32,000 nt of DNA from Acaryochloris marina MBIC11017 (GCF_000018105.1 NC_009925.1:3720001-3752000); one strand, 5' to 3'; counted from the first letter of the stretch, positions 16,485 through 29,949 are shown. Numbers and translations: made by a program. Notes: generated from the letters alone by a model not told the origin.

Positions 16485-16961
16485 ATGCATTTGTCTATCG
16501 ACTTTCGTCCAATATGTGATGACGATCTCAATTATTTAAAGCAAATCTATGCAAGCACTCGTGCAGAAGAATTGCAGGTCTTATCCTGGAGTCAGGAAGA
16601 GAAGGAGATCTTCTTGCAGAGACAGTTTCAGGCCCAGCACCAATATTATCAGGCTCAGTTTAGAGAGGCTGAATATTTGATGATTTTGGAGGGAAATCAG
16701 CCAATTGGTCGCTTATATGTCGACCGACGCCCTGATGAGATTCGAATTATTGATATTGCTATTTTACCTGCCTATAGAGGACAAGGAATTGGTTCATCGC
16801 TACTACAGCAAATCTTAGCTGAAGGGCAGTGCTCACATAAATCCGTCAGGATTCATGTTGAGCAAAATAATAGAGCTTTAAAGTTATACCAACGTCTTGG
16901 GTTCCAAAAGAAATCTGAGAATGGTGTTTATTTTTTGATGGAATGGATGCCTAATTCTTAG
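16485..16961 (+). CDS. GNAT family N-acetyltransferase (158 aa) in an AT-rich setting
   Basis: ILPAYRGQGIGSSLL (acetyl-CoA motif A) and ALKLYQRLGF are present. The track start at 16479 is GTG, so I use ATG at 16485. Confidence 0.8.
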   Translation: MHLSIDFRPICDDDLNYLKQIYASTRAEELQVLSWSQEEKEIFLQRQFQAQHQYYQAQFREAEYLMILEGNQPIGRLYVDRRPDEIRIIDIAILPAYRGQGIGSSLLQQILAEGQCSHKSVRIHVEQNNRALKLYQRLGFQKKSENGVYFLMEWMPNS

Positions 16962-17121
16962 CGAAAATATATTTATAAGACAGCAGTTTTGGAGTGATTA
17001 TATTCATTTTTGATAGAAAAATAATGACTTTATAAACATAAGATAGAAAGACCTGTCTTGTGAGTGATTGAGGAGCTGTTAACGGTTAATAAAGATGACG
17101 TTATAGGTGCAAAGTGAGGCG

Positions 17122-17433
17122 ATGAGACTAGCAGAATTAACACAATCACAATTTTCAGACTATTTAGGGGATGCGTTCCGAATCGAAGGAGAATTGGAGG
17201 CATGCCTGAACCTTCAGTTGATTGAGGCGACCCATCTATCATCAGGACGCCATACGAAGTCCAACGGTCAACGTCCAGAACCTTTTGCTTTAGTTTTTCA
17301 AGGACCGCAAACTAGCCCTTTAGATCAAGCGACTTATCAGCTACAGCACGAGCATTTGGGAGAGCTGCCTGTGTTCTTGGTGCCTATTGATCAGGATGAA
17401 GAAGGGGTCTACTACGAGGCAATTTTTAATTAG
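17122..17433 (+). CDS. Small signal-less protein (103 aa), paralog of the ORF at 15761-16192, directly upstream of the tail-collar triad
   Basis: It shares FALVFQGPQ...ATYQLQHEHLGELPVFLVPI....GVYYEAIFN with the Tat-signal paralog. GTG at 17107 is an alternative start. Confidence 0.62.
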   Translation: MRLAELTQSQFSDYLGDAFRIEGELEACLNLQLIEATHLSSGRHTKSNGQRPEPFALVFQGPQTSPLDQATYQLQHEHLGELPVFLVPIDQDEEGVYYEAIFN

Positions 17434-17501: not shown

Positions 17502-18002
17502 ATGTCAGAACCGTTTTTAGCAGAAATACGAATAGTAGGCTTTAATTTTGCTCCGCGAGGTTGGGCTTTTTGCGATGGGCAAATTTTGCCGATTAATCAA
17601 AATCAATCACTTTATTCACTTTTAGGTACGACCTATGGCGGAGATGGTCGCACATCTTTTGCCCTGCCTGATTTGCGGGGGCGAACACCGATTCATGTCA
17701 GCAGTAGCCATCTCCAGGGACAAAAGGGAGGTGAAGAAACCCATACCTTGGCTGGGAATGAAATGCCACAACATACCCATCAACTTCAAGCCTCATCTAG
17801 TGCTGCGAATAACCCTATTCCGACTGGCCATGTGTTGGGAGAGGTCTCATCTGGGTTGTATCACAGCAATACTAACTCTGTAGCACTGCTTGCGGGCACA
17901 GTGACTAATGTTGGAGGTGGTCAGGGACACGATAATATGCAGCCCTATCTCGCTGTTAACTTCTGCATTGCCTTACAAGGTCTTTTCCCGTCCAGAAATT
18001 AG
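17502..18002 (+). CDS. Phage-tail-collar-domain protein, paralog 1 (166 aa)
   Basis: The start is MSEPFLAEIRIVGFNFAPRGWAFCDGQILPINQNQSLYSLLGTTYGGDGRTSFALPDLRGR, the hallmark of the Collar domain (Pfam PF07484 by recollection). HTH lies at 17772-17780. The C-terminus is GGGQGHDNMQPYLAVNFCIALQGLFPSRN. ATG at 17502 is preferred over the upstream alternative start in the track. Confidence 0.85.
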   Translation: MSEPFLAEIRIVGFNFAPRGWAFCDGQILPINQNQSLYSLLGTTYGGDGRTSFALPDLRGRTPIHVSSSHLQGQKGGEETHTLAGNEMPQHTHQLQASSSAANNPIPTGHVLGEVSSGLYHSNTNSVALLAGTVTNVGGGQGHDNMQPYLAVNFCIALQGLFPSRN

Positions 18003-18017
18003 TAGGAGATATCACTT

Positions 18018-18536
18018 ATGTCAGAACCTTTTGTTGGTGAGATCCGTATGTTTGCAGGCAATTTTGCCCCGCGTGGATGGGCGTTCTGTGATGGGCAACT
18101 GCTGGCTGTGTCCCAAAATGATGCTTTATTTTCTTTGCTTGGCACGATTTATGGCGGTGATGGTCGAACTACCTTTGGATTACCCGATCTGCGGGGACGT
18201 ATTCCCATTCATGCAGGGACAGGTCCAGGGCTTTCCCAGCGTAGGCTAGGTGCGAAAAGTGGTGTTGAGCAAGTCACCTTGACTGCAAATCAGCTACCCA
18301 GCCACACTCATACATTGCAAGCCTCAACTGACTTAGCTGATCAAACGGCACCACAGGGCAACGTCATAGCCCAGCCCTCAACACTGTCTCTCTATGCCCA
18401 AGAACCTATTGATACCAATATGAATGTTGCTGCCATTACCAGTGTGGGAGGGAGTCGAACGCACTCCAACCTACAGCCATTTGTATGTATCAATTTCATT
18501 ATTGCTTTGTTGGGTATCTACCCATCCCGTAACTAA
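18018..18536 (+). CDS. Phage-tail-collar-domain protein, paralog 2 (172 aa)
   Basis: It starts 15 nt after paralog 1, with an AGGAGA RBS. The first 60 aa are 44/60 identical to paralog 1 and 48/60 to paralog 3 (hand count). HTH lies at 18303-18311. Confidence 0.88.
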   Translation: MSEPFVGEIRMFAGNFAPRGWAFCDGQLLAVSQNDALFSLLGTIYGGDGRTTFGLPDLRGRIPIHAGTGPGLSQRRLGAKSGVEQVTLTANQLPSHTHTLQASTDLADQTAPQGNVIAQPSTLSLYAQEPIDTNMNVAAITSVGGSRTHSNLQPFVCINFIIALLGIYPSRN

Positions 18537-18546
18537 GGAGTGTTAC

Positions 18547-19065
18547 ATGTCCGAACCTTTTATTGCCGAAATTCGCATTTTTGCAGGCAACTTTGCACCA
18601 CGAGGTTGGGCCTTTTGTGATGGGCAATTGTTACCTGTTTCCCAAAACACCGCGCTCTTTTCTTTAATTGGCACAACCTATGGCGGTGATGGTCGTAGCA
18701 CTACGGCATTGCCTAATCTACAAGGACATGCGCCGATGCATCCAGGACGTGGTCCAGGTTTAACGTCTCGTAGTCTAGGTCAGAAGGGCGGAGCAGAAAT
18801 AATTACACTGTCTGAAGCTCAAATGCCTAACCATACCCATACGTTAAGAGCAACTTCGGAAACTGCTGAGCTTCAAGAACCTGGAACAGATCGGGCACTG
18901 GCTCGTTCTTCTCGGGGACTTGCCTATCAATCTGCTGCGACTAACCTCGTTACTATGGCTGACCTCCCTAATGCGGGAGGGAGCCAATCCCATAACAATA
19001 TGCAGCCCTATTTAGCTGTCAATTTTATTATTGCTTTGCAAGGGCTCTATCCATCGCGCAGCTAA
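18547..19065 (+). CDS. Phage-tail-collar-domain protein, paralog 3 (172 aa)
   Basis: It starts 10 nt after paralog 2, with an AAGGAG RBS. HTH lies at 18832-18840. The track ORF from 18424 is an upstream extension overlapping paralog 2. Confidence 0.88.
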   Translation: MSEPFIAEIRIFAGNFAPRGWAFCDGQLLPVSQNTALFSLIGTTYGGDGRSTTALPNLQGHAPMHPGRGPGLTSRSLGQKGGAEIITLSEAQMPNHTHTLRATSETAELQEPGTDRALARSSRGLAYQSAATNLVTMADLPNAGGSQSHNNMQPYLAVNFIIALQGLYPSRS

Positions 19066-19155: not shown

Positions 19156-22100
19156 TTAAGGAGGGGTGGGGCAAGAAACACCACCACTGAAGGTGAGGCC
19201 GGCATCAATAGTGGTGTTGTCAGCCACACCATTATTGCGTCCTGTTAAATAGGTTTCTACATCTGTTGCACTGGTCCCCAATCCTGTGAAGCCCGGCAAA
19301 ACAAACGAATCTGTGCTGCTTCTCAATCTCAAGCGAATATCAATAACCCCGGCTTCTGTCGTGATTGTGTTAGCTAGCGCACCAGCCCCGCCAATATCAG
19401 CGCAAGCATTTATGTCGTCAGTTGTCGAGCCTGAGGCACCAGATTGAAAGAAAATGCCTGGTAGGCCAAATATATTGGATTGTGTCAACGTGTTACCGGT
19501 GATTGTTGCATTGAATGTGTTGTCTCCATCTCTAGCAAATAGTCTAACAACTTCATTAAAGCCATCATTGACGAGTGTGTTATCAGTAATTGTGATTGTC
19601 AATGTTCCGTTACCCTGAGCAATTGCTTCAATAGGTTCACCGAAATTATTCGTATCGGTCAGACTAATAAAATTGTTGTCAATATTGCCCTGTAAGCGTC
19701 CAGATGTTGTCGATTGACTACCCAGTAGCACGTTAATCCCATCAGAAGCTGCATTGCTAAAGAGCACGGGATTACCTGCTGTTCCGTGATTTCGGATGTC
19801 GAAATTTACGACTGCATTTAGATTCGACGTAATCTGACCAAACGTATTTGTTCCAGTGATGGTGTTTCCATCTAACACCACATCAGCTGTCCCTTGATCC
19901 GTGACATTAATGATGAAAGCGCTGGCAGGAATATTCTGAATGGTGTTATTGGCAATATTGGCCGTTGTTAAGACTGAAGTTCCCGTCCCTTCGTAGACAA
20001 AGGCACTGTCTTGCGTATTATTCGAGATAGTATTGCCTGTTAAGGTCAAGCTGCTAAGCGTGCCCGAACTATTGCGAATATCAATGCCAAAGGATTGACT
20101 ACTATCGATGAGACTATTGGTAATGGATACTGCGCCAGTGACTCCATTGAGAGGTGTTGTTGTATCACCAAACTGAATTCCAGATTCTCCGTTAGCATTG
20201 CCGTTACGGAGAATGCGCCCGCTGGTCAGGGTAAACCCATTCACGTTGTCGCCAAAAATACCATCATCGCCGCCATCGGTGACATCTATAAAGCTGAGTG
20301 AAATATTTTGGGCATTACTCAAACGGATGCCTGCCCCTGTGCTGTTATCAATGAGCCCTCCCGATCCTAAGGTTGCTCCATCTCCTGTCACATTGAAACC
20401 GCCACTACCAACATTATTTAAATTGATGCCATTAGTTCCACCATTTGCTGAAATGCTCTGAAAAGTGACTCCACTTGTACCTATCGTGGTGTTGGCTATA
20501 TTGAGCGCTGTGGTTGCCCCGGAATTAATTGTGTTGGCTGTACCCGTAACATTCACTGTGCCCCCGTTGGTGGCATTGAAGCCTATGCCTGTAGTGGTAT
20601 CGATATCTAAATTGCTACCTGCAAAATTAATCGTAGCGCCAGTATTGCTGGTCAAATTGACCGCATTGACCGTCCCAGAATTCAACGTGAGGGGACCCGT
20701 AATGGCGACCGTACCCCCTGTCTTATTCGCCACATTGACATTGCGAGCGCTGAAAGCTGTTCCAGTTCCACGGGTAATAGTGATATTACCCGTCCCACCA
20801 TTCGCGTTGAGTAATGCCCCAGCAACATTGATAGTGTTGTTCTGGGCGGTCACATTCGTCGTCAGGTTCGCAACATTGAAGACCGTAGCATTGGCACTAA
20901 CATTTTGAATGACATTGTTCTGAATCGTGATACCCGTGCCATTACTGAACCCAGCGGTGGCATTATCAATATCGAAAATGTTAGCCGTGCCAGTGCTGTA
21001 TTCAAAGGTATTGTGCTCGATGGTATTGTTGCCCCCTAGTGTCAAGACATCGCTACCCGCTGTTGAGTTGGTGATCACGGCAGAGTTGGCTGTGATAGTC
21101 CCCCCGACTGTACTGAACGTGCCTAAAATATTGGCCGGTTTTATAGACCCAAACGATACCGAGTTAGTGTTGGCAAAACCTGTAATGCTTTGACCTGTCG
21201 CCAGGGTAAAGCCTGTAGCTCCCTGGGCCGTTACATCAATATTGCCGATAAAGGCAAAGGTTTCGGTTCCGGCCAATAGATCCGCCGCAGCTACAGAGAT
21301 CGTACTGATGGATTGACTTAGGCCAAAGCTCCCAGCGGTGAGCGTGCCGCCATTCTGACTGACAAAGGTGGCTGAGGCTGCACCCGCAGGGAAATTCGCT
21401 GCATCGCCTGCACCAAACGTGACATCTTCAAAATCAAAACTGGAGGCGGCTAGGGTGCCATTCCCGGCATCTACGGTGAAGGCTCCTGCTTGAGCGTTGA
21501 CATTAATGCTGGACCCGGTATCACTGGCAGATTCACCATCGCCAAAGGTAAACTGAACCGCCGCAGTATTATCGATGACGACCCCTCGGTGCAGATCCGT
21601 AATACTGCTGGATGGGCCTGTTGCTGGTGTGGTTTGGGTCCCTAGATTGACAGTCTGATTGCCAGCCAATGCGGTTAAATCAACCCCGATAGAGTTAGTC
21701 GAGGTATCAGGACCAGAAATGGCGACTGAGTTATAGGCCGCAGTCCCTGATAAGGTGGCTCCATTGAAGTTGATGCCGACCTGATTGGCGGCAGCCCCCA
21801 CATCTGTAATTGTGGTGGTACCGAACGTTGTTGCAGCGTTCGTGCCGACATAGCGAATGCCACTCGTGCTGGCGGTTGTCCCCAGGTCGATATTGACGGT
21901 GCCAAAGGTGAGGGTGCCACTATTGCTGGTTAAGGCAATGGCATTACCTGTGGGGCTGTTAACGGTTGTAGTGCCAGTGACTGCAAAGGAACCCGTCAAA
22001 GTGTTGAGGGAAATACCACTGGCTCCTGCTGTAGAAGAGACGGTATCAACAGTAATGTTAGACGCAATTCCATTGAGGTTGATAGCCTGACCAGATGTTG

Positions 22101-25100
22101 TGGTGACGGACTCATCCCCTGCTGTAGCCGCTACACCCACTGTGCCGCCAGTGGTGGCATTCAAGCCTGTGCCTGTGGTGGTATCAATGTTTAAACCACC
22201 ATTGAAATTGATAGTGCTGCCTGTATTGTTGGTGAGGTTAATGCCAGGGGCAGTACTGGTATTGGCAGTAACTAAGCCATTAAAAGCGGTGGTGTTTCCG
22301 GTTTTGTTGTTGATATTGACCGCACTGGCTGCATTATTTTGGGTAATGGTGCCAGCGTAGGTGACGGAGGCGGTGCTGGTGTCTTCATTAAACGCAGTTC
22401 CTGATGGGCTGGTGATGGACGTATTGGCACTAAAGGTGAACGTGCCCGCAGACCCATTGAGGATATCAATTCCAGCATCACCACCATTCAGAGTTGTAGT
22501 GCCGTTGAAGTTGTAGGTGCCATCAGCATTATTAAACTGCAGGCCATTGCCATTCGTGGCATTAATGTTGGTTGTGTTGGCAAAAGTGATGGTGCCTGTA
22601 TGCCCACTTTGAACATTAACGGCGCTAACATTATTGGCCTGAGCAATCGAACTGGTGCCGTTATAGTTGATATTGGCTGCACCACCGTCAACATTCAAAC
22701 TAATGCCAGTGGGACTGGTGATAGTTGTGTTTGCAAAGGTGAATGTGCCTGCAGACCCATTGAGGATATCAATTCCAGCATCACTGCCATTCAGGGTTGT
22801 GGTGCCGTTGAAGTTGTAGGTGCCATCAGCATTGTTAAACTGCAAGCCATTGCCATTCGTGGCACTTAGCATTCCAGTTTGGAAGGTGACCGTTCCTGTA
22901 GAATGGCCGCCCGTTACATTGACCGTGCTGGCATTATTGGCCTGAGCGATACTGCCGCTATAGGTAATGCTGGCCGTACCCCCATTGAGATTGAATGCTG
23001 TACTTGTGGGATTGGTGATGGAGCTAGCGGTATCAAAATCAAAGGTGGCGTTGCCTCCGCTGATATCCACGCCAATACCGGTGGCGTTGGTGATGTCTAA
23101 ATTATCGATGTTGATGGTGCCAGCGGCATTGGTAAAGACGACCCCCCCAGCTAGGGATACATTCTGGAGGGTAGTTGTCCCGGTAGCATTTGTGATTTGA
23201 AGCGATGTCCCCGTGGTGCCCGTACTGGTGATATTAGAGAGCATCGTATCCGCAGCATTAACAATGACATCAGTGTTATTGCCGCTAAAGGTGACATTGT
23301 TGAGGGTGGTATTGGTCGAAGGTGTAATTTCAATCCCAGTAGTGAAATTCTGGATGGTTGTGTTTTGAATGGTGGTATTGTTTGCACCTGTTAAACCTGC
23401 GATCGCACGGGTAGCCGTACTACTACCATCGAAGATCACATTCTGAATCGTATTGTTATTCGCCAGGGTGATAACGTTATTCCCAGCGCTAGTACTGAGG
23501 ACCGCAGCACCATTCCCCGTGGGATCTGTGATGTTGGTACTTGGGAAAGTACCTAATACATTAGCGGGTTGCTGAAAACCAAAGGTTTGACCATTACCAA
23601 ACCCATCGATGGCATCGCCAGTACCCAGGGTAAAGCTATTGCCTGCCGCCGCCAGCAGCGTATCAAAGTTATAGGTAGTGCCATTGTTGATAAAGACAAA
23701 GGTGTTGACGGTAGCCAAATTCGCTTGAGTTTGAGCAGCAGCAACACTAGCGGCTTGAGTTGGAGAGCTACCATTCCCCGTCCCCGTATCAGAGACAAAG
23801 AAGAGCTGCCCCGCGACCCCGGCTCCACCTGGGAAGTTGGGATTGCCCGTAAAGGTGACATCGTTAAAGTTATAGGTGCCACTAGCAGGATCTAAACCGA
23901 CAGCCTGCACTGTAAAGCCACCCGCTGTGACGCTAATTGTACTTGCTTGATCGACGGTATCTTCACCATCCCCAAAGATAAAGTTGACGTTTGCCGTTGT
24001 TCCGACGGCTTGACTGGAAGACAGCTCTACTCCAATTTCGACATTGGCGATGGAACTGGGAGTGTCCGTACCTGGGTTCATTGAGTCACCCACCTGGATC
24101 AGACGATTGCCGAGGGTGGAGGACAAGTCGATACCCACAGACCCTGCAGTTCCCGTTCCTGCAATGTTCAAAGACGTAAACCGGACCCCACCTACTGGAT
24201 CAGACCCAGCAAAATCGACTCCCGTATCGTCTCCGAAATTCGTAATGCTGGTGTTGCCAAAGGCAATAGCTCCATTATTAACCCCTTCAATATCAATACC
24301 CGCTGCATCAATCACACGAGGCGTGAATAATGGTGTGGGGACAATCGGCGCTCCAGGGTTACTGATATTGGTCGTGCCAAAGGTAACGTTGCCTGGATTA
24401 TTAGAAATAAGAATGCCATCTTCAACAGTGGTGTTGATAGTGGTAGTTCCTGTGGCGGTGAAGGTTCCTGTATTCCCTGTCAATTGAATGCCTACAGTGG
24501 GTCCTCCGTTAGTCAGGACATTACCTGTGGCTGGAGTGATTGTAGAGGGGGCAATACTAATTGAATTGAAAGCAAAGTTCGCGCTGGAGTTGCTAATATT
24601 TATCCCTTGCGTTGTTCCTGCACTAGGATTAGGACTAAAGAATTGTGCACCTATCTCTTGAGAAATTTCTGGTGCGGTAATAGAAGTTGCCCCAGTGACC
24701 GTGAATGAGCCTGTGACTTGATTAGCCACAAATCCACTGTCAAATCCATCCCCATTTAAATTTAGACTAGATAGAGTGATTTCAGAATTGACCTGGTTAA
24801 GGTCAATTTGGCCCGCATCGACATTGCCATCTAAGATCCGAATCGTCAAATCAGCACTACTCGCATTGGTTAAGATGGCGGCATTGGTTACGTTGGCATT
24901 GAATTGGTCAAAGCGAATCGTTCCTCTACTGCTCCGGCCAGTATCAAGTGTTGCTGCAGTAAAGCCAAAAGAAGTCCGTTCCGTGGGACTGCCAAGGGTT
25001 AAGGTACCCCCCTGTACTTCTTGCAAACCCGCCGTGTTGGGATCTGCATCAAACACGACCCCGTCAAACCGGAAGCCGTTCGCCATAAAAGCGGGATTGA

Positions 25101-28100
25101 AGGCTGTGGAATCTCCTTGCAGCGTGTTGTTACTAAAATCGGTAACGATTAAGCCTTCTGTAATGCCCTGAATAACAACCCCCTGATCTTCTGTTTTGAA
25201 GATGCTGTTGGCAATGGATAGTACTAACTGATCGTCATCACGGGTTTCTGCAAACACCCCAAAATCCAAGCCTCCAATACTGGCAGTGGCATCATGAATG
25301 ATAGAAATGCCGTCGATTGCCACCGTGAGGTTGCGAGTCGTTGTAACATCATTCTGAATAATAGAAAAGCTATTTTGATTGCCGCCCACTGGTGAGCTGA
25401 GGGTGCCGCCATTCACGGTAAATGCGCCATCTAAATTACTGAGGGTTATCCCAGAACCAGAGGTTGACCGAGTGGCGCTAATGGAATTGAAGGTTGTATT
25501 CACTGTACTATCGGCAATATTGACGGCCAGACCATCCGTAGTGACGACGGTGTAGGTGCCTGTAGAGCCCATTGCCCCCACATTGACCGTACTGCCTGTG
25601 ACATTGAATCCAATGGCTGTCGTTGTATCTATATCTAGTCCGCCTGTAAAGCTGACCGTGCTTCCCGCATTACTTGTTAGATTCACTCCAGTTGCCGTAC
25701 CGGTATTGGCGGTGACTAAGCCATTAAAGGTGGTGGTGCCTCCAGTCTTGTTGTTGATATTGATGGCACTAACCGCATTATTTTGAGTAATCGTGCCGGT
25801 ATAGGTAACAGTTGCAGTACTTGTATCTTCGTTGTAGGCAATTCCGGTTGGATTCGTGATGGCGGTATTGGCAAACGCAAAGGTGCCTCCAGAGCCATTG
25901 AGAATATCAATACCCGCATCCCCGCCATTGAGCGTAATCGGACTATTAAAGGTGTAAGTTCCATCAGCGTTGTCAAACTGCAACCCATTGCCGTTAGTGG
26001 CATTGATGGTGGTGGCCGCATCAACCGTCAAGGCACCCGTGTGTCCCCCGCTAACGTTGACTGTGGCTAACGGATTGCCGTTGTTGAGGGTGGAGCCTGT
26101 AATATTGACGTTTACAGTGCCGCCATTAAAGTCCACCGTTGGCAACGTAGACTGTTGAATCGTGGCTGTTCCCGCTAGACCTGTACCAGAAACGGCTGGC
26201 CCATTACTGCCATTATCCAGAACGACTCCATTGATAGTGTTGTTATTGGCGAAGGCCACGGTTGCAGGCGTTCCTGCTCCCGTGGTGGTCAAGGTAGGGA
26301 CTCCGTTACCAGTCGTGTCTGTAATTGACCCTGTTGAGGCATTCAGTAGCACATTGCCGGGACCAGCAAACGGAACATTGATTGTGGATCCGTTGCGGAA
26401 ACTGAGAATTTGTTGATTAGCAGTCAGGTCAAAAGAGCCCCCTGCATTGATGGCATCAATGACATCTGTTCCAGATGTATTCACCAAGATAAAAATATCG
26501 GCCGTTGGGCTGGCCTCTGCAGCGGTAATACTGCCTGGATCTGTAATCGTGGCTCCTGAGCCATTCGTATTCTGATCAACGAAGAATAACTCAGGGAACG
26601 TAAACCCAAGTCCCGGACTGCCTGCAAAGGCAACATCTCGGAAGTTATAGGTGCCATTTGTCCCCACAGCACTGGCATCAATGGGAGTCGTCGCTGCAAT
26701 CGTACTGGGAGCATCCACCGTCAACTCCCCATCCCCAAAGATAAAGTTGGCATTGGCATTATTCAATTGCACCCCAACACTCACCCCCGCAATCGAACTG
26801 GGCGTATCTCCATTGATATTGGCTGGATCACCTAAGGTAATCACCCGATTACCCGTGGTATTCGTCAGGTCAATCCCCGTGCCCACATTGCCCGTATTCG
26901 TAATCGCCACCGTGGGAGCCGTGACGCCGACATTCGCCCCCGCCAGATTAATCCCTGTTCCCGTAAAGCCATTAATCGTCAATGCCCCCAAGTTAAACAC
27001 TGTGGTGGCATCATTAATTCCTGAAAGATCCAAGCCATCTAACCCAGCGTTGGTGATGGTCACGGGACCAAAGGTATAGGTCCCTGTACTATTGGTCGCT
27101 AAGAACCCATCTCCAGTGGTGTTGGCAATCGTAGTGGTTCCAGATACCCCCACCGAACCTGTTACTGTATCCAGGTTGATGCCATTCGTTCCCCCAGTCG
27201 AAGACACTGAATCAAAGGTGATGTTGGCCGCTATATTGTTGAGATTCAGAGCAGTGCCACTGGTCGTGGTGACCGATTCATCCCCACTTGTGGCAGTGAC
27301 ATTGACGGTGCCGCCATTGGTGGCGTTAAATCCAGTCCCTGTGGTGGTATCAATATCTAAGCCCCCATTAAAGGCAACAGTATTCCCGGTATTGTTGGTC
27401 AGGTTCACTCCAGGAGCAGTACTAGTATTAGCCGTCACCAACCCATTAAAGGTGGTTGTCCCTCCTGTCTTATCCGCAATATTGACCGCACTGGCTGGAT
27501 TATTTTGGGTAACCGTACCGTTATACGTAACGGTTGTGGTTCCACCGGCAACATTGAATGCTGAACTCGTGGCATTGGTAATGGAGCTGGTGTCGTCAAA
27601 AGTGAAGGTGGCATCACCGCCTGTAATATCGATACTGTTATCGCCAGCATTGGTGATATCGACATTAGTGGCCGTAATCGTTCCTGATGGGTTGGCAAAC
27701 TGGAGACCGTCTCCACCTGAATTGGAGATATTGACATTGGTGAGGGTGGTGGTGCCTGTGGCATTGAGAATCTGAATGGCGGGACCCGTGGCGTTGGTGC
27801 TCGCAACGTTGGCTAAGGTCGTATTGGCGGCATTGACGATGGCATCTGTAGCGTTGTTGTTGAAGACCACATTGTCGATGGTGGTGTTGGTGGAGGGGGT
27901 GATCTGAATGCCAGCGATGGTGAAGTTCCCGAGGCTGCTGTTGCGGATGGTGGTGTTGGTGGCTCCTGTAACGGCAGCTATTCCCCGAGGAGCTGTATTT
28001 TGACCATTGAAGGCAAGACCATCGATGGTGTTGTTATTGGCGAGGGTGAGGACGTTGTTGTTGGCACCATTGACCAGTTGGGGTTGTCCGGCATCGAAGA

Positions 28101-29949
28101 TGGTGACTGAGCCCAGGTTGGGAACAGTGAAGACAAAGTTGGGAGTGGTGCCGACCCCTAGTGCTTGTTGTCCCTCCTTTAGGGAGAGGGTTCCACCGGT
28201 TCCGGTTTGGGTATCGATGGCTCCAGCATCGTTGAGAAAGAAGAGAATATCGTTGGCTTGGGTAAGAGCGCTGGCCTGAGCAATAGTTAAAGGACTGCTT
28301 TGGGTTCCACTGCCAGCGGTGCCATCTCCATCGATGAAGAAAATATTGATGGGGAGTCCAGTGGCGGGGTTAAGGGCTACTTGGGAATTTGAGGCAATAA
28401 TCTGAGGTCCAAGGGGAGAAAGGGAACCTTGACCCGCTGCCGCTGCCTGGAGTTCAGCCATAGAAATAGGACGATTGATGTCCTGGGCAAAGGTCGTGAT
28501 TTCGTACTCGCGCTCAATCGGGCGACGGGCTAATCGCTGGGTAAGGGTGAGGGGCTGAGAGCGTTTAGGGCCTCCAAAGGGAATCCCCAGACGAACAAAG
28601 CCTTCGAGTTCTGAGCCTCGGGTTTCATCAAAGCGGAAACGGCCGCCAACTTGTAACAAGCCTCCGTTCATCCCTAAAGGATCTTGAACTTCGAGTTGGG
28701 TACGGGCCATGGGGCCATCGATGCTGAGGGTTTCGCGACTGTCAAAGAAGAAGTAGCCTCCAAACAGGCCGAGACTGACTTTGTCATTGAAGTGATGACG
28801 ATGGCCTGCTTCAAAGTCAAACCCGGCCAGGGCTCGTTCACGAGCTTCTAGAGTAAGGGTTTGTTGGACAATGTTGGTGCCCAGGCCATTCGCTCTCGGC
28901 TGAATCCCTAAAACACCGTTGATGGTGCGTTGACCGACGACATTAGGGTTACTGCCAGGGAGATAGCCGTTAACTCTAAACTCGAATTTCTTGTTGACGA
29001 GTTCAGCCCCAAGGCTGCCTTGGTGATACTGAAAGCCGTTTTCACTCCGTTTAGAATCGTAGAAGGCATGGGTGCCGAGAATCCAAGGGTTCTCGTTCGA
29101 GGTGTTGAGGATACGGCGATAGGCGAGACCAAGGTTGCCCAGGAAGGTTTCGTTACTGCCTCCTTCAAAATGAACATCAGCAAAGGCGAAGGATTGATCA
29201 TCCTGCCAGAAGGGAAGTCGGAGGTTGATCCCTCCAAATTGACGACGGGTACTGCCACGGAATTCGGTATCGACAAAGTAGGGAATGCCTAGGTTGGTAG
29301 AAGTGTCTGCTTCTGTATTGGTGTCGTTAGAAGTATCTGATTTCTCGCCAGTTTTGGTGTCCGTAGGGACATTAGGCTCTGCTTGGACTAAGCGGTGGGA
29401 TGTTGCTGCAGGAAGATTAGATGGAGTCGTTCCTTTATTGATCGCGACAACTTGTGGTGCTGTTGTCCATCCTGCTTCTGCCAACGTGCGAGGCGGAGAG
29501 GCTGTAAAGGGTGGATTGGTGTCAATCGTTGGAGGAAGCTGGTCGATGACAGGCTGATCCGTCAGGTCCTTGGGTGAAGGCTGGGGGTGTTGGTCAGATT
29601 CTAAAGGAGCTGTTAGGGATGCTTCAGGACGCTGTGTGATGCTCTCATCCTGGGGTAAAGGAGATAGAGAATGTTCGGGAACGGTGTCAGCAGAGTCAAG
29701 CGCCAATTGAAAGTCGCTGGGTGGAGAGATGTAGGCTGCAGTAATCTCCGATTCTGCCGAAGGTGGTGCCTCTAATGGTGCTGGATCAGTACCGATATTC
29801 CCTAGAGGCTCGGTTGCTTGGGGTAGGGCAGCCGAGATCTCTTCGGCCAGCGCCGCCATGGGCCATACCCCTGCGATCAGCAAACTAAGTGCTAAGGATT
29901 TCCCAAGGTGAGATCGCACCTTGGGATCAATACTCATCCAGCCAGCCAT
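19156..29949 (-). CDS. Giant (3597 aa) outer-membrane inverse-autotransporter-like adhesin with a parallel beta-helix repeat passenger
   Basis: A single uninterrupted ORF with an ATG start and GAGG 7 nt upstream. It has a signal peptide, a Pro-rich spacer, a barrel signature and about 3100 aa of T/N/G-rich beta-helix-type repeats. See the sub-features and findings. Confidence 0.85.
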   Translation of the reverse strand: MAGWMSIDPKVRSHLGKSLALSLLIAGVWPMAALAEEISAALPQATEPLGNIGTDPAPLEAPPSAESEITAAYISPPSDFQLALDSADTVPEHSLSPLPQDESITQRPEASLTAPLESDQHPQPSPKDLTDQPVIDQLPPTIDTNPPFTASPPRTLAEAGWTTAPQVVAINKGTTPSNLPAATSHRLVQAEPNVPTDTKTGEKSDTSNDTNTEADTSTNLGIPYFVDTEFRGSTRRQFGGINLRLPFWQDDQSFAFADVHFEGGSNETFLGNLGLAYRRILNTSNENPWILGTHAFYDSKRSENGFQYHQGSLGAELVNKKFEFRVNGYLPGSNPNVVGQRTINGVLGIQPRANGLGTNIVQQTLTLEARERALAGFDFEAGHRHHFNDKVSLGLFGGYFFFDSRETLSIDGPMARTQLEVQDPLGMNGGLLQVGGRFRFDETRGSELEGFVRLGIPFGGPKRSQPLTLTQRLARRPIEREYEITTFAQDINRPISMAELQAAAAGQGSLSPLGPQIIASNSQVALNPATGLPINIFFIDGDGTAGSGTQSSPLTIAQASALTQANDILFFLNDAGAIDTQTGTGGTLSLKEGQQALGVGTTPNFVFTVPNLGSVTIFDAGQPQLVNGANNNVLTLANNNTIDGLAFNGQNTAPRGIAAVTGATNTTIRNSSLGNFTIAGIQITPSTNTTIDNVVFNNNATDAIVNAANTTLANVASTNATGPAIQILNATGTTTLTNVNISNSGGDGLQFANPSGTITATNVDITNAGDNSIDITGGDATFTFDDTSSITNATSSAFNVAGGTTTVTYNGTVTQNNPASAVNIADKTGGTTTFNGLVTANTSTAPGVNLTNNTGNTVAFNGGLDIDTTTGTGFNATNGGTVNVTATSGDESVTTTSGTALNLNNIAANITFDSVSSTGGTNGINLDTVTGSVGVSGTTTIANTTGDGFLATNSTGTYTFGPVTITNAGLDGLDLSGINDATTVFNLGALTINGFTGTGINLAGANVGVTAPTVAITNTGNVGTGIDLTNTTGNRVITLGDPANINGDTPSSIAGVSVGVQLNNANANFIFGDGELTVDAPSTIAATTPIDASAVGTNGTYNFRDVAFAGSPGLGFTFPELFFVDQNTNGSGATITDPGSITAAEASPTADIFILVNTSGTDVIDAINAGGSFDLTANQQILSFRNGSTINVPFAGPGNVLLNASTGSITDTTGNGVPTLTTTGAGTPATVAFANNNTINGVVLDNGSNGPAVSGTGLAGTATIQQSTLPTVDFNGGTVNVNITGSTLNNGNPLATVNVSGGHTGALTVDAATTINATNGNGLQFDNADGTYTFNSPITLNGGDAGIDILNGSGGTFAFANTAITNPTGIAYNEDTSTATVTYTGTITQNNAVSAININNKTGGTTTFNGLVTANTGTATGVNLTSNAGSTVSFTGGLDIDTTTAIGFNVTGSTVNVGAMGSTGTYTVVTTDGLAVNIADSTVNTTFNSISATRSTSGSGITLSNLDGAFTVNGGTLSSPVGGNQNSFSIIQNDVTTTRNLTVAIDGISIIHDATASIGGLDFGVFAETRDDDQLVLSIANSIFKTEDQGVVIQGITEGLIVTDFSNNTLQGDSTAFNPAFMANGFRFDGVVFDADPNTAGLQEVQGGTLTLGSPTERTSFGFTAATLDTGRSSRGTIRFDQFNANVTNAAILTNASSADLTIRILDGNVDAGQIDLNQVNSEITLSSLNLNGDGFDSGFVANQVTGSFTVTGATSITAPEISQEIGAQFFSPNPSAGTTQGINISNSSANFAFNSISIAPSTITPATGNVLTNGGPTVGIQLTGNTGTFTATGTTTINTTVEDGILISNNPGNVTFGTTNISNPGAPIVPTPLFTPRVIDAAGIDIEGVNNGAIAFGNTSITNFGDDTGVDFAGSDPVGGVRFTSLNIAGTGTAGSVGIDLSSTLGNRLIQVGDSMNPGTDTPSSIANVEIGVELSSSQAVGTTANVNFIFGDGEDTVDQASTISVTAGGFTVQAVGLDPASGTYNFNDVTFTGNPNFPGGAGVAGQLFFVSDTGTGNGSSPTQAASVAAAQTQANLATVNTFVFINNGTTYNFDTLLAAAGNSFTLGTGDAIDGFGNGQTFGFQQPANVLGTFPSTNITDPTGNGAAVLSTSAGNNVITLANNNTIQNVIFDGSSTATRAIAGLTGANNTTIQNTTIQNFTTGIEITPSTNTTLNNVTFSGNNTDVIVNAADTMLSNITSTGTTGTSLQITNATGTTTLQNVSLAGGVVFTNAAGTINIDNLDITNATGIGVDISGGNATFDFDTASSITNPTSTAFNLNGGTASITYSGSIAQANNASTVNVTGGHSTGTVTFQTGMLSATNGNGLQFNNADGTYNFNGTTTLNGSDAGIDILNGSAGTFTFANTTITSPTGISLNVDGGAANINYNGTSSIAQANNVSAVNVQSGHTGTITFANTTNINATNGNGLQFNNADGTYNFNGTTTLNGGDAGIDILNGSAGTFTFSANTSITSPSGTAFNEDTSTASVTYAGTITQNNAASAVNINNKTGNTTAFNGLVTANTSTAPGINLTNNTGSTINFNGGLNIDTTTGTGLNATTGGTVGVAATAGDESVTTTSGQAINLNGIASNITVDTVSSTAGASGISLNTLTGSFAVTGTTTVNSPTGNAIALTSNSGTLTFGTVNIDLGTTASTSGIRYVGTNAATTFGTTTITDVGAAANQVGINFNGATLSGTAAYNSVAISGPDTSTNSIGVDLTALAGNQTVNLGTQTTPATGPSSSITDLHRGVVIDNTAAVQFTFGDGESASDTGSSINVNAQAGAFTVDAGNGTLAASSFDFEDVTFGAGDAANFPAGAASATFVSQNGGTLTAGSFGLSQSISTISVAAADLLAGTETFAFIGNIDVTAQGATGFTLATGQSITGFANTNSVSFGSIKPANILGTFSTVGGTITANSAVITNSTAGSDVLTLGGNNTIEHNTFEYSTGTANIFDIDNATAGFSNGTGITIQNNVIQNVSANATVFNVANLTTNVTAQNNTINVAGALLNANGGTGNITITRGTGTAFSARNVNVANKTGGTVAITGPLTLNSGTVNAVNLTSNTGATINFAGSNLDIDTTTGIGFNATNGGTVNVTGTANTINSGATTALNIANTTIGTSGVTFQSISANGGTNGINLNNVGSGGFNVTGDGATLGSGGLIDNSTGAGIRLSNAQNISLSFIDVTDGGDDGIFGDNVNGFTLTSGRILRNGNANGESGIQFGDTTTPLNGVTGAVSITNSLIDSSQSFGIDIRNSSGTLSSLTLTGNTISNNTQDSAFVYEGTGTSVLTTANIANNTIQNIPASAFIINVTDQGTADVVLDGNTITGTNTFGQITSNLNAVVNFDIRNHGTAGNPVLFSNAASDGINVLLGSQSTTSGRLQGNIDNNFISLTDTNNFGEPIEAIAQGNGTLTITITDNTLVNDGFNEVVRLFARDGDNTFNATITGNTLTQSNIFGLPGIFFQSGASGSTTDDINACADIGGAGALANTITTEAGVIDIRLRLRSSTDSFVLPGFTGLGTSATDVETYLTGRNNGVADNTTIDAGLTFSGGVSCPTPP
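19159..21372 (-). repeat. Passenger super-repeat U4 (aa 2860-3597), with a divergent, more highly charged C-terminal beta-helix and a Cys pair
   Basis: It begins ATFVSQNGGTL...TFAFIGN...LTLGGNNTIE. The distal part has PbH1-like turns (GIRLSNAQNISLSFIDVTDGGDDGIFGDNVNGFTLTSGRILRNG...). Confidence 0.55.
21373..23808 (-). repeat. Passenger super-repeat U3 (aa 2048-2859)
   Basis: It begins QLFFVSDTGTGNGSSPTQAASVAAAQ...TFVFINN...ITLANNNTI and ends ...QFTFGDGESASD...SSFDFEDVTF. Confidence 0.55.
22333..22938 (-). repeat. Tandem duplication of a 303-bp (101-aa) unit inside U3
   Basis: 22442-22562 and 22745-22865 are offset by exactly 303 nt and differ at about 7 of 120 positions by hand comparison. 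The peptides are NATNGNGLQFNNADGTYNFNGTTTLNG[GS]DAGIDILNGSAGTFTF. Confidence 0.75.
23809..26592 (-). repeat. Passenger super-repeat U2 (aa 1120-2047), carrying a unique, more highly charged insert
   Basis: It begins ELFFVDQNTNGSGATITDPGSITAAEA..ADIFILVN...VAFANNNTI and ends ...NFIFGDGEDTVD...GTYNFNDVTF. Confidence 0.55.
26593..28350 (-). repeat. Passenger super-repeat U1 (aa 534-1119): beta-helix domain with its own N-terminal cap-like segment
   Basis: It begins INIFFIDGDGTAGSGTQSSPLTIAQA..ANDILFFLN...LTLANNNTI and ends ...NFIFGDGELTVD...GTYNFRDVAF. Confidence 0.55.
28570..29292 (-). other. Inverse-autotransporter (intimin/invasin family) beta-barrel domain signature (aa ~220-460)
   Basis: NLGLAYRRIL....WILGTHAFYDSKRSENGFQYHQGSLGAELVNKKFEFRVNGYLPGS...ERALAGFDFEAGH follows the IAT_beta pattern as I recall it (NlGlGyR, GvNaFYD, R.glGaE, NgYlPls, Gydle). 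Alternating hydrophobic strands continue up to RLGIPFGG. Confidence 0.62.
29293..29844 (-). other. Pro/Ser/Thr/Asp/Glu-rich low-complexity spacer (aa 36-219), presumably periplasmic
   Basis: Composition is visible in the translation (PAPLEAPPSAESE..., HPQPSPKDLTDQPVIDQLPPTIDTNPP...). I did not recognise LysM or SLH motifs. Confidence 0.5.
29845..29949 (-). other. Sec signal peptide of the giant protein (aa 1-35)
   Basis: MAGWMSIDPKVRSHLGKSLALSLLIAGVWPMAALA/EE has a basic n-region, a hydrophobic core and an A-x-A cleavage site. Confidence 0.6.

What the first reader, a model, noticed from the sequence alone, without database searches (positions are those of the whole stretch)
28570..29292. 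Intimin/invasin-type inverse-autotransporter barrel signature at the N-terminus of a cyanobacterial giant protein
Seen in the sequence: aa ~220-460 read NLRLPFW...FADVHFE...NLGLAYRRIL...WILGTHAFYDSKRSE..YHQGSLGAELVNKKFEFRVNGYLPGS...ERALAGFDFEAGHRHH...LGLFGGYFFFD...VGGRFRFDE...FVRLGIPFGG. This segment lies after a signal peptide and before the whole repeat region.

Established knowledge: type Ve (inverse) autotransporters have an N-terminal 12-stranded barrel and a C-terminal passenger. The motif series above resembles the IAT beta-domain consensus as I remember it.

Two things are unusual. The periplasmic part is a ~185-aa Pro-rich acidic spacer instead of a LysM domain. The passenger is beta-helical rather than the Ig-like (Big) arrays classic for intimin and invasin. 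A ~3100-aa beta-helix exported through a Ve barrel would be an extreme case for this pathway.
Basis: partly seen in the sequence, partly recalled or inferred. Interest (0 to 1): 0.72.

Follow-up and report, generated by a model that had tools for sequence, protein, structure and literature searches.

The report
Giant cyanobacterial inverse autotransporter adhesin
The segment is a genuine intimin/invasin-type outer-membrane barrel at the start of a 3597-residue Acaryochloris marina surface protein; databases and one paper already recognise this, but the gene also sits in a conserved, apparently undescribed cluster with three phage-tail-collar genes.

Summary
Window 19156-29949 (-) encodes a 3597-aa protein identical to A. 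marina MBIC11017 AM1_3691 (WP_012164066.1). RefSeq already names it "inverse autotransporter beta domain-containing protein".

Evidence for the barrel:
- Residues 1-600 hit Pfam IAT_beta at 45.1 bits (cut-off 22.3).
- An AlphaFold2 model of aa 151-640 (pLDDT 85.7) has invasin and intimin barrels as its top three PDB matches (TM 0.70-0.74).
- A profile alignment to E. coli YeeJ spans most of the barrel.
- Twelve strands show a conserved membrane-type pattern. Two further strands (aa 336-371) form a variable hairpin inserted between strands 7 and 8.

The N-terminal spacer is disordered, Pro-rich and acidic. The passenger is four right-handed beta-helix modules.

None of this is new in kind. Heinz et al. 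2016 reported cyanobacterial inverse autotransporters and ones with pectin-lyase-type passengers. Hoeflea relatives reach 4550 aa.

The more novel item lies next door. Three orthologous tail-collar genes, a GNAT and DUF6916 flank this gene and its homologues in three phyla. The same cassette flanks other giant adhesins that share the C-terminal cap.

The parts
19156..29949 (-). Whole gene: 3597-aa inverse autotransporter, identical to A. marina MBIC11017 AM1_3691 / WP_012164066.1 / ABW28681.1
   Evidence: ORF list and translation. Exact identity to cluster member P0153, which RefSeq names 'inverse autotransporter beta domain-containing protein'.
29845..29949 (-). Sec-type signal peptide, aa 1-35 (MAGWMSIDPKVRSHLGKSLALSLLIAGVWPMAALA|EE). 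A GAGG Shine-Dalgarno-like box lies 5 nt upstream of the ATG.
   Evidence: Read directly from the sequence. The n-region/h-region/AxA layout is conserved in homologues. No predictor was run.
29290..29844 (-). Disordered Pro/Thr/Ala/Ser-rich acidic spacer, aa 36-220. Presumed periplasmic; occupies the position of LysM in intimin.
   Evidence: P 15.2%, D+E 27 against K+R 7. No Pfam family. AF2 pLDDT 46-54 over aa 151-210. Sequence and length are not conserved among cyanobacterial homologues.
29467..29496 (-). Only conserved island in the spacer: PPRTLAEAGW, aa 152-161 (consensus P-x-T-L-[AV]-E-A-G-[WL])
   Evidence: Alignment of six cyanobacterial-clade N-termini. Function unknown.
28576..29280 (-). 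IAT beta-barrel domain, aa 224-458: 12 membrane-type strands plus an inserted hairpin
   Evidence: Pfam IAT_beta 45.1 bits. AF2 strands. Foldseek top three hits are the invasin and intimin barrels. hhalign to YeeJ gives 84% probability, E 7.6e-6. Conservation pattern.
28834..28956 (-). Variable beta-hairpin, aa 332-372, inserted in the loop between barrel strands 7 and 8. Presumed extracellular.
   Evidence: High entropy, up to 0.9 gap fraction, no hydrophobic alternation. Absent from YeeJ in the profile alignment. 10 aa shorter in Hoeflea proteins.
28405..28575 (-). Linker, aa 459-515: short helix 469-474, conserved extended segment 475-486 (RRPIEREYEITT; family consensus RRMTxPxVRDVDIVT, R480 invariant), then a clade-specific insertion with helix 497-504
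   Evidence: AF2 secondary structure, pLDDT 78-95. Column conservation. Same R-[DNE]-x-[DNE]-I pattern as YeeJ's VDRNNNIVLEY. Passage through the pore is inferred, not seen.
19159..28404 (-). Passenger, aa 516-3597: four concatenated right-handed beta-helix modules whose heads start near aa 534, 1120, 2047 and 2859
   Evidence: Internal repeats 35-70% identical. Module head motifs located. Beta_helix PF13229 scores 15.6, 22.5 and 25.8 bits, all just under the 25.9 cut-off. AF2 of aa 3040-3597 gives pLDDT 84.5, pTM 0.88, all-beta solenoid. All Foldseek matches are beta-helix proteins but only weakly (best pertactin, E 0.014).
19159..19485 (-). C-terminal cap module, aa 3489-3597, bracketed by the protein's only two Cys (3516, 3593) and ending ...SCPTPP
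   Evidence: Cys positions. Consensus TxCAxISGN...CPTxP in homologues. The same module ends unrelated giant adhesins next to Collar triplets.
17502..19065 (+). Three tandem phage-tail-collar (PF07484) genes convergent with the IAT gene: 17502-18002, 18018-18536, 18547-19065. No signal peptides; each has an HTHxL motif.
   Evidence: Pfam Collar 94-105 bits each. Sequences. The same triplet lies next to homologous IATs in seven loci. Three orthologous groups are 58-78% identical across phyla.
15761..17433 (.). Rest of the conserved cassette: DUF6916 with an RRHFLLFSG Tat-like signal (15761-16216, -), GNAT acetyltransferase (16479-16961, +), and a second DUF6916-like ORF directly upstream of Collar1 (17107-17433, +)
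   Evidence: Pfam. The 17107-17433 ORF aligns with the PF21880-annotated gene of locus L009. GNAT and DUF6916 accompany 22 and 24 of 28 Collar triplets that have enough downstream flank.

Best explanation
The segment is the outer-membrane beta-domain of a type Ve (inverse) autotransporter.

Proposed pathway:
1. The protein is exported by Sec through a cleavable N-terminal signal peptide.
2. A roughly 185-aa disordered, acidic, Pro-rich spacer stays in the periplasm.
3. Residues 224-458 are inserted by the cyanobacterial BamA/Omp85 machinery as a 12-stranded barrel of the intimin/invasin fold. The barrel carries an extra variable surface hairpin between strands 7 and 8.
4. The conserved linker (aa 467-486) runs back through the barrel lumen.
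5. The roughly 3080-aa passenger is threaded out N-to-C as a hairpin. It folds outside into four concatenated right-handed beta-helix modules ending in a disulfide-bracketed cap. The result would be a very long fibre that stays attached to the cell.

The most likely role is adhesion or aggregation in the biofilm and epibiotic lifestyle of Acaryochloris.

Shown here: sequence and fold membership of the barrel, domain order, the disordered spacer, and the beta-helical passenger. Inferred: topology, linker inside the pore, hairpin secretion, surface exposure, and adhesin function.
For: - Pfam IAT_beta scores 45.1 bits against a 22.3 cut-off and is the only family on aa 1-600.
- The AF2 model has pLDDT 85.7 and pTM 0.73. 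A barrel at aa 224-458 is followed by a short helix and an extended linker, then beta-solenoid strands.
- The Foldseek top three are invasin 4e1t and intimin 4e1s/5g26, with TM 0.70-0.74 normalised to the target. Other 12- and 14-stranded barrels score 0.40-0.62.
- hhalign of the family profile against E. coli YeeJ aligns strand 2 through the start of the linker at 84% probability, E 7.6e-6. The extra hairpin appears as an insertion.
- A profile search of the PDB hits invasin at E 3.8e-5.
- Twelve strands show alternating conserved hydrophobic and polar columns. Strand 12 ends in RLGIPF. The linker motif is near-invariant.
- The family is large: 779 cluster representatives at E<=1e-30. It includes 550-aa forms and 3.5-4.5 kb-aa giants with the same barrel and passenger repeats.
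- RefSeq names this protein and its homologues inverse autotransporters.
- The passenger is beta-helical.
- Heinz 2016 documents IATs in Cyanobacteria and IATs with pectin-lyase passengers.
Against: - The Pfam match covers only the first half of the model. The second half of the barrel has no independent sequence hit.
- phmmer against the PDB gives only E=0.39.
- DSSP counts 14 strands, not 12. I could not inspect coordinates, so the 12+2 reading rests on conservation, the YeeJ alignment and TM-scores.
- The linker's location in the lumen was not seen.
- No experimental data exist for any beta-helix-passenger IAT or for this protein. A literature search for AM1_3691 found nothing relevant.
- Cyanobacterial BAM has 3 POTRA domains and lacks most accessory lipoproteins (PMC6604945), so the E. 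coli mechanism is an extrapolation.
Confidence: 0.87

Rival explanations
1. The barrel is a 14-stranded variant. Under this reading the two extra strands (aa 336-371) are part of the membrane wall. That would make a wider pore, perhaps adapted to a bulky beta-helical passenger, and so a structural departure from the 12-stranded type Ve/Va barrels.
For: DSSP on the AF2 model lists 14 strands of similar length (10-16 residues) joined by short 3-8-residue turns. An even number keeps the topology legal. The model's RMSD to intimin and invasin is 6.7-8.2 A.
Against: Strands 8-9 are the least conserved part of the domain (entropy about 3 bits). They contain up to 90% gaps and show no alternating hydrophobic face, unlike all 12 others. 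They are 10 aa shorter in Hoeflea proteins and align to a gap in YeeJ. The 14-stranded OmpG fits worse (TM 0.45-0.53) than the 12-stranded intimin/invasin (0.70-0.74), PcoB (0.62) or COG4313 (0.60).
Confidence: 0.08
2. The N-terminal barrel belongs to another outer-membrane family, such as an OprB-type porin, a TpsB/Omp85 transporter or a classical type Va translocator, and only resembles IAT_beta superficially.
For: The Pfam alignment is partial. Generic barrels (OmpG, NalP, FapF, EspP) also appear in the Foldseek list at E 4e-6 to 1e-4.
Against: No other Pfam or NCBIfam barrel family is hit. There is no POTRA domain. The barrel is N-terminal to the passenger, the opposite of type Va. The three IAT structures outrank every other barrel by more than 3 orders of magnitude in E-value and by 0.1-0.3 in TM-score. 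hhalign to YeeJ covers strands 2-12.
Confidence: 0.02
3. The protein does not act alone. It would be the fibre component of a multi-gene surface system that also includes the neighbouring heterotrimeric tail-collar proteins, a GNAT and DUF6916. The C-terminal cap at the fibre tip would be the point of interaction or modification. This extends the best explanation rather than excluding it.
For: - Seven loci from Acaryochloris-type cyanobacteria, Hoeflea and a Desulfuromonas-like bacterium keep the set IAT + Collar x3 + GNAT + DUF6916, although the gene orientation differs.
- Collar orthologues are 58-78% identical across phyla and their 1-2-3 order is fixed. The IAT barrels are only about 30% identical and the passengers about 40%.
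- In 80 metagenomic Collar loci, 61 have complete triplets. GNAT and DUF6916 follow in 22 and 24 of 28 loci with enough flank.
- In 18 loci an ORF carrying the same Cys-bracketed C-terminal module ends 4-564 bp upstream of Collar1. The examined complete giants are Ig/cadherin-type, not IATs.
- Three consecutive PF07484 genes in virophages are reported to form a heterotrimer proposed to bind cyanobacterial LPS (PMC12724248).
Against: - The Collar proteins have no signal peptide, so their route to the surface is unknown.
- The paralogue AM1_0106 has the cap but no adjacent triplet. P0158 and the 556-aa P0002 also lack the triplet.
- Linkage is not proof of physical interaction.
- My ORF calls in metagenomic loci are stop-to-stop, which overcalls long ORFs in GC-rich DNA.
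Confidence: 0.55

Closest known systems
Intimin (EHEC/EPEC Eae) and invasin (Yersinia): prototype type Ve inverse autotransporters; barrel structures 4E1S, 5G26, 4E1T
   Same: Signal peptide, then N-terminal barrel, linker and C-terminal passenger. The barrel fold is the best structural match (TM 0.70-0.74). Shared sequence motifs include GN(L/F)G, NGY, ER..G(F/W)D and the R-[DNE]-x-[DNE]-I linker motif.
   Different: No LysM domain; a 185-aa disordered acidic Pro-rich spacer takes its place. An extra ~25-40-aa hairpin lies between strands 7 and 8. The passenger is right-handed beta-helix modules rather than Big/Ig arrays with a C-type-lectin tip. Only 14-15% identity in the structural alignment. 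The host is a free-living or epibiotic cyanobacterium, not an enteric pathogen.
'Pectin lyase'-passenger group of invasin_beta proteins and the cyanobacterial IAT groups, described bioinformatically by Heinz et al. 2016 (PMC4943183)
   Same: Same combination of an IAT barrel with a beta-helical (IPR011050-type) passenger, and occurrence in selected cyanobacterial taxa. The ~550-aa proteins found here, such as the Mariprofundaceae protein P0002, fit that description.
   Different: The paper's supplementary lists were not available, so I could not confirm that this protein was in their set. The window protein strings four such modules into a 3100-aa passenger. It also adds the N-terminal spacer and the gene-neighbourhood association, neither of which the paper mentions.
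E. coli YeeJ (b1978): a 2358-aa inverse autotransporter adhesin that binds peptidoglycan and promotes biofilm
   Same: A large IAT adhesin. Its barrel aligns to the family profile over 191 columns (hhalign 84%). YeeJ's role in adhesion to abiotic surfaces and biofilm (PMC6555100) is the functional analogy used here.
   Different: YeeJ has a LysM domain and an Ig-like repeat passenger. It has no Collar/GNAT/DUF6916 neighbours in K-12.
Classical type Va autotransporters with beta-helix passengers: pertactin 1DAB, Ag43 7KO9, UpaB 6BEA
   Same: A 12-stranded barrel combined with a single-chain right-handed beta-helix passenger. These three are the top, though weak, structural matches for the C-terminal passenger model (E 0.014-0.023).
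   Different: The domain order and direction of threading are opposite. There is no sequence homology in the barrel. The Foldseek E-values are not significant, so only the fold class is shared.
ZirT-type IATs with co-encoded partner proteins (discussed in Heinz 2016)
   Same: A precedent for an IAT barrel working together with small proteins encoded next to it.
   Different: ZirT has no large passenger of its own, and its partners are not tail-collar proteins. Whether the Collar proteins here are substrates or partners is unknown.

Membership tests
Inverse autotransporter (type Ve secretion; Pfam IAT_beta PF11924) | Significant match to the IAT_beta profile above the curated threshold | tested here: met
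   45.1 bits against GA 22.3, E 1.2e-11, aa 218-383 matched to profile 40-173/279; 45.5 bits. The match is partial: the C-terminal half alone gives no hit.
Inverse autotransporter (type Ve secretion; Pfam IAT_beta PF11924) | Barrel fold of intimin/invasin | tested here: met
   AF2 pLDDT 85.7. Foldseek ranks 4e1t, 4e1s and 5g26 first, second and third, with TM 0.70-0.74 and E 2e-10 to 2.5e-9.
Inverse autotransporter (type Ve secretion; Pfam IAT_beta PF11924) | Twelve transmembrane strands | tested here: inconclusive
   There are 14 DSSP strands. Twelve have a conserved alternating pattern. Two (aa 336-371) are variable, gap-rich and absent in YeeJ, which favours 12 plus a surface hairpin. Coordinates could not be inspected.
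Inverse autotransporter (type Ve secretion; Pfam IAT_beta PF11924) | Inverted domain order: signal peptide, barrel at the N-terminus, passenger at the C-terminus | tested here: met
   Signal peptide aa 1-35, barrel 224-458, passenger 516-3597.
Inverse autotransporter (type Ve secretion; Pfam IAT_beta PF11924) | Conserved linker after the last strand that occupies the barrel lumen | tested here: inconclusive
   The linker aa 467-486 is the best-conserved non-barrel stretch (R480 invariant). It resembles YeeJ's RYDLVDRNNNIVLEY. It is modelled as a short helix plus an extended chain at pLDDT 78-95. Its position inside the pore was not visible with these tools.
Inverse autotransporter (type Ve secretion; Pfam IAT_beta PF11924) | Passenger exposed on the cell surface, exported N-to-C via a hairpin | not testable with these tools
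   Needs protease shaving, immunofluorescence or reporter display.
Intimin/invasin subfamily proper | Passenger of Big_1/Big_2 Ig-like domains capped by a C-type-lectin-like domain | tested here: not met
   No Big or Intimin_C hits; only sub-threshold Beta_helix. The AF2 model is a beta-solenoid. The protein is therefore an IAT superfamily member but not an intimin or invasin.
Intimin/invasin subfamily proper | Periplasmic LysM domain (present in intimin and YeeJ; not universal) | tested here: not met
   No Pfam family on aa 1-220; a disordered Pro-rich acidic spacer.
Two-partner secretion TpsB / Omp85 | POTRA domains plus a 16-stranded barrel | tested here: not met
   No POTRA or Bac_surface_Ag/ShlB hits. 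The barrel is about 235 aa with 12-14 strands.
Right-handed parallel beta-helix (pectin-lyase fold) passenger | Beta-solenoid of three-stranded coils | tested here: met
   AF2 of aa 3040-3597: pTM 0.88 with periodic short strands. All 50 listed Foldseek matches are beta-helix proteins, though none has E<=1e-3. The family-profile passenger hits pectate lyases and polygalacturonase. PF13229 scores 25.8 bits against GA 25.9.

The most novel reading that the evidence does not exclude
The inverse autotransporter is the fibre of a previously undescribed, widely distributed surface module. The module would consist of a giant adhesin ending in a ~110-aa Cys-bracketed cap, three ancient orthologous tail-collar paralogues that likely form a gp12-like heterotrimer, a GNAT and DUF6916. 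The cap at the distal tip would be the site where the collar trimer docks or where the adhesin is modified. In effect this would be a cellular counterpart of a phage tail fibre with a receptor-binding tip. The IAT barrel would be only one of several interchangeable export and anchor devices; Ig/cadherin giants that have only signal peptides carry the same cap next to the same cassette.
Probability: 0.3. Interest if true: 0.7.

Novelty: already known. Interest (0 to 1): 0.35.

Why it matters
As an annotation, the finding adds little. RefSeq already names the protein an inverse autotransporter, and the class (cyanobacterial IATs, and IATs with pectin-lyase passengers) was described in 2016.

It is still a useful case, because no beta-helix-passenger IAT has been studied experimentally. 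This one combines four features:
- a 3100-aa solenoid that must be threaded N-to-C;
- a disordered periplasmic spacer with a single conserved motif;
- an enlarged surface hairpin on the barrel;
- a host whose BAM complex is reduced.

It could therefore test how general the hairpin and folding-driven secretion model is.

The conserved linkage to a tail-collar triplet, a GNAT and DUF6916 across three phyla and hundreds of metagenomic loci is the part that could open something new. It may identify partners for a large class of environmental giant adhesins. It may also give a cellular role for the widespread 'microcystin-dependent/phage tail collar' proteins.

Tried and rejected
- **Full-length hmmscan:** gave no IAT_beta hit; only the N-terminal 600 aa did. 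I suspect HMMER's filters on this giant T/G/N-rich sequence. The same problem made my C-terminal-cap HMM unreliable on full-length giants.
- **Word-indexed homologue search:** found only 2 proteins. The exhaustive profile search was needed.
- **phmmer of the barrel against the PDB:** only invasin, at E=0.39.
- **C-terminal half of the barrel alone against Pfam:** nothing.
- **NCBIfam:** only a meaningless SinH fragment (9.9 bits).
- **Genome-collection scan with the two-sequence alignment:** returned one locus, a Mariprofundaceae MAG. 
- **Tandem repeat finder and first self-BLAST attempts on the gene:** nothing. The modules are diverged at the DNA level and were found only by chunked protein BLAST.
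- **Foldseek of the C-terminal passenger model:** gave fold class only, with no significant specific match. A weak PLL-lectin similarity at E 0.2 was dismissed as chance.
- **NCBIfam and PADLOC on the Collar, DUF6916 and GNAT proteins:** no informative names and no defence-system match.
- **Literature:** nothing on AM1_3691, on DUF6916, or on tail collar plus autotransporter. The Heinz 2016 supplements are not held.
- **Rejected hypotheses:** OprB porin or TpsB (no hits); pseudogene or misassembly (the intact ORF is conserved in strain CCMEE 5410 at 3589-3593 aa).

Full report
**1. What is there**

The finding lies inside one long minus-strand ORF, window 19156-29949, of 3597 aa.

The protein is identical over its full length to cluster member P0153. 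That is ABW28681.1 / WP_012164066.1 / UniRef B0C4D7 / AM1_3691 of Acaryochloris marina MBIC11017. RefSeq names it "inverse autotransporter beta domain-containing protein".

Strain CCMEE 5410 has a 3589-3593-aa orthologue. A. marina also has a 1743-aa paralogue, AM1_0106, that is 73% identical over the first ~1240 aa. The gene upstream and divergent is an Amino_oxidase-family carotenoid-desaturase-like gene, separated by a ~690-bp AT-rich spacer.

**2. Is the barrel an inverse-autotransporter barrel?**

Sequence evidence:
- Pfam IAT_beta is the only family hit on aa 1-600: 45.1 bits against a cut-off of 22.3, E 1.2e-11.
- The match is partial. It covers profile positions 40-174 of 279, and the C-terminal half of the domain is not recognised alone.
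- phmmer against the PDB gives only invasin at E 0.39.
- An 89-sequence family profile raises invasin 4e1t to E 3.8e-5.
- hhalign of that profile against the YeeJ beta-domain from E. coli K-12 aligns 191 columns, from strand 2 to the start of the linker, at 84% probability and E 7.6e-6.

Structure evidence:
- AlphaFold2 on aa 151-640 with the 89-row alignment gave mean pLDDT 85.7 and pTM 0.73.
- Foldseek against the PDB ranks invasin 4e1t (E 2.1e-10, TM 0.70), intimin 4e1s (1.4e-9, 0.74) and intimin 5g26 (2.5e-9, 0.73) first.
- OmpG comes next at 3.8e-6 with TM 0.45. Classical autotransporter barrels (NalP, EspP, BrkA) score TM 0.3-0.4.
- No porin, POTRA or TpsB family is hit.

**3. Strand number**

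DSSP on the model lists 14 strands between aa 224 and 458. I could not view coordinates, so I used the alignment.

- Twelve strands show the classical alternation of conserved hydrophobic and polar/Gly columns.
- The two strands at aa 336-351 and 358-371 have about 3 bits of entropy, up to 90% gaps and no alternation.
- This stretch is 10 aa shorter in Hoeflea proteins.
- It aligns to a gap in YeeJ, between "NGYLRLTNWRSAP" and "NDYEARPANGWD".
- 12-stranded barrels fit the model better than the 14-stranded OmpG.

I conclude that this is a 12-stranded barrel with a lengthened, variable surface hairpin between strands 7 and 8. I leave about 8% for a true 14-stranded wall.

**4. Linker**

After strand 12 (…FVRLGIPF) come a short helix (aa 469-474) and an extended, confidently modelled stretch.

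Columns 467-486 are the most conserved non-barrel part of the family. The consensus is L..ERRMTxPxVRDVDIVT, R480 is invariant, and the window reads LTLTQRLARRPIEREYEITT. The R-[DNE]-x-[DNE]-I core matches YeeJ's VDRNNNIVLEY.

Residues 495-515, including helix 497-504, exist only in the cyanobacterial clade (gap fraction 0.93). Passenger strands start at about aa 516.

**5. N-terminal part**

Residues 1-35 have a basic n-region, an 18-residue hydrophobic core and an ALA|EE site; no predictor was run.

Residues 36-220 are 15% Pro with 27 D+E against 7 K+R. They have no Pfam hit and pLDDT of about 50. They are unalignable among homologues except for one island, PPRTLAEAGW at aa 152-161. In most family members the barrel follows the signal peptide directly, with a median of 34 aa before it.

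**6. Passenger**

- Chunked self-BLAST shows large internal duplications of 35-70% identity.
- Four module heads (…FF[IV]D…G.G…) sit near aa 534, 1120, 2047 and 2859.
- PF13229 Beta_helix scores 15.6, 22.5 and 25.8 bits in three passenger pieces, against a cut-off of 25.9.
- AF2 of aa 3040-3597 with an 8-row alignment gives pLDDT 84.5 and pTM 0.88, with a regular all-beta solenoid.
- All 50 listed Foldseek matches are right-handed beta-helix proteins: pertactin, UpaB and Ag43 first, then tailspikes and polysaccharide lyases. None is significant; the best E-value is 0.014.
- The protein's only two cysteines (3516, 3593) bracket the last ~80 residues, and the chain ends SCPTPP.

**7. Family context and prior knowledge**

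An exhaustive profile search found 4159 cluster representatives at E<=1e-3 and 779 at E<=1e-30. Most are about 550 aa: signal peptide, barrel and one beta-helix module. An example is P0002 from a Mariprofundaceae MAG.

Giants with the same barrel and about 40%-identical passenger repeats occur in Hoeflea (3908-4550 aa) and in uncultured cyanobacteria (3640-3884 aa). RefSeq names these proteins inverse autotransporters.

Heinz et al. 2016 (PMC4943183) reported invasin_beta proteins in particular cyanobacterial taxa. They also reported a group with a C-terminal "pectin lyase" domain, which they compared to pertactin. The 2019 type V review still describes type Ve passengers as Ig-like or lectin-like (PMC6555100).

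The architecture is thus known bioinformatically and uncharacterised experimentally. It is not a size record.

**8. Mechanism**

By homology with intimin/invasin, the pathway would be:
1. Sec export.
2. BamA-dependent barrel insertion.
3. Formation of a linker hairpin in the pore.
4. N-to-C threading of the passenger, driven by sequential folding outside. This follows the model summarised in PMC6555100.

All of this is inferred. Cyanobacterial BamA has 3 POTRA domains and few accessory lipoproteins (PMC6604945). Function as an adhesin or aggregation fibre is inferred from architecture and lifestyle.

**9. An unexpected neighbourhood**

Convergent with the 3' end of the gene lie three tandem PF07484 "phage tail collar" genes: 17502-18002, 18018-18536 and 18547-19065. 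They are preceded by a DUF6916-like ORF (17107-17433), a GNAT (16479-16961) and a DUF6916 gene with a Tat-like signal (15761-16216, minus strand).

The same set flanks homologous IATs in:
- an Acaryochloris-like contig (L009);
- another cyanobacterial-type contig (L003);
- Hoeflea olei, a Hoeflea MAG and a related contig (L008, L011, L010). These add a PLL-type beta-propeller lectin;
- a Desulfuromonas-like contig (L012), where all the genes are co-directional.

The cassette is absent next to AM1_0106, P0158 and the short P0002.

The three Collar paralogues fall into three orthologous groups in a fixed 1-2-3 order. Orthologues are 58-78% identical across phyla, while paralogues are 42-60% identical to each other. 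They are far more conserved than the adjacent IATs.

A metagenome scan with Collar1 found at least 564 relatives. Among the 80 loci kept:
- 61 have complete triplets;
- GNAT follows in 22, and DUF6916 in 24, of the 28 with enough downstream flank;
- in 18 loci an ORF ending in the same Cys-bracketed cap stops 4-564 bp upstream of Collar1.

None of the 80 loci shows the IAT barrel within the sequence held. For giants longer than the 10-kb flank, the N-terminus would lie outside it. The complete giants examined carry Big_9, cadherin-like or He_PIG repeats instead.

The conserved pairing is therefore "cap-bearing giant adhesin + Collar triplet + GNAT + DUF6916", with the IAT barrel as one of several anchor types.

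Further points on the Collar proteins:
- They lack signal peptides and carry an HTHxL motif. From my recollection of the T4 gp12 structure, its metal-binding histidines look similar.
- A 2025 paper reports that three consecutive PF07484 genes of virophages form a heterotrimer proposed to bind Synechococcus LPS (PMC12724248).
- In Microcystis, the RhiA/RhiB-like MrpA/MrpB proteins are discussed together with the extracellular cell-contact glycoprotein MrpC (PMC3328848). That MrpB and RhiB carry PF07484 is my recollection of the Pfam description and was not tested here.
- I found no paper on DUF6916, or on tail-collar genes linked to autotransporters.

Caveats: the metagenomic ORFs are stop-to-stop calls, several loci are related, and linkage does not prove interaction.

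**10. Verdict**

- Observation: confirmed.
- Interpretation: supported, with corrections on novelty, size and linker limits.
- The finding itself is already known at annotation level and belongs to a published class, so its interest is modest.
- The neighbouring conserved cassette is the item most worth a follow-up.

Noticed in passing
window 15761-19065, next to the IAT gene; also loci L003, L008-L012 and L013-L092: A conserved cassette of three tandem tail-collar (PF07484) genes + GNAT + DUF6916 lies next to this IAT and its homologues in cyanobacteria, Hoeflea and a Desulfuromonas-like bacterium. In metagenomes the same cassette lies next to other giant adhesins that share the C-terminal Cys-bracketed cap. 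The Collar paralogues form three orthologous groups that are 58-78% identical across phyla. I found no literature on this association.
   Followed up: partly
window 29467-29496 (aa 152-161, PPRTLAEAGW): This is the only conserved island in an otherwise unalignable disordered periplasmic spacer. It is shared by all six cyanobacterial-clade homologues examined (P-x-T-L-[AV]-E-A-G-[WL]). It may be a short linear motif for a periplasmic or peptidoglycan partner; its function is unknown.
   Followed up: partly
window 19159-19485 (aa 3489-3597): The C-terminal cap is bracketed by the protein's only two Cys, 77 residues apart, and ends CPTPP. A similar C...CP ending closes the passengers of Hoeflea giants and of Ig/cadherin-type giants. 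The 550-aa family proteins end with a shorter, possibly different, two-Cys cap. AF2 confidence here is only 56-75.
   Followed up: partly
window 15761-16216 (-) and 17107-17433 (+): Two DUF6916-type ORFs. The first carries a twin-arginine-like signal (SRRHFLLFSG) and the second has none. The Hoeflea and Desulfuromonas-like loci have one or two as well, so periplasmic and cytoplasmic forms may coexist.
   Followed up: no
locus L005 (A. marina AP026075.1, AM1_0106 region): A 1743-aa paralogue is 73% identical to the window protein over aa 1-1242. It has the same spacer motif and cap but no adjacent Collar triplet, which suggests a recent intragenomic duplication. Its neighbours are DUF4329, DUF4915 and a transposase.
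   Followed up: partly
loci L008, L010, L011 (Hoeflea): A 425-aa Beta-prop_PLL protein (Photorhabdus PLL-type propeller lectin) is inserted between Collar3 and the GNAT. MipA and IalB genes flank the cassette. The lectin reinforces a carbohydrate-binding theme.
   Followed up: no
window 19156-29949 (methodological): hmmscan of the full 3597-aa protein misses IAT_beta entirely, while the first 600 aa score 45 bits. The precomputed Pfam annotations for the homologues P0160 and P0158 also show '-'. Giant low-complexity passengers may be hiding N-terminal barrels from routine domain annotation.
   Followed up: partly
window 29950-30636: A ~690-bp AT-rich intergenic region separates the IAT gene from the divergent carotenoid-desaturase-like gene (Amino_oxidase family, 30637 onward). 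The same gene pair is adjacent in locus L009. It is probably the promoter/regulatory region; it was not analysed.
   Followed up: no
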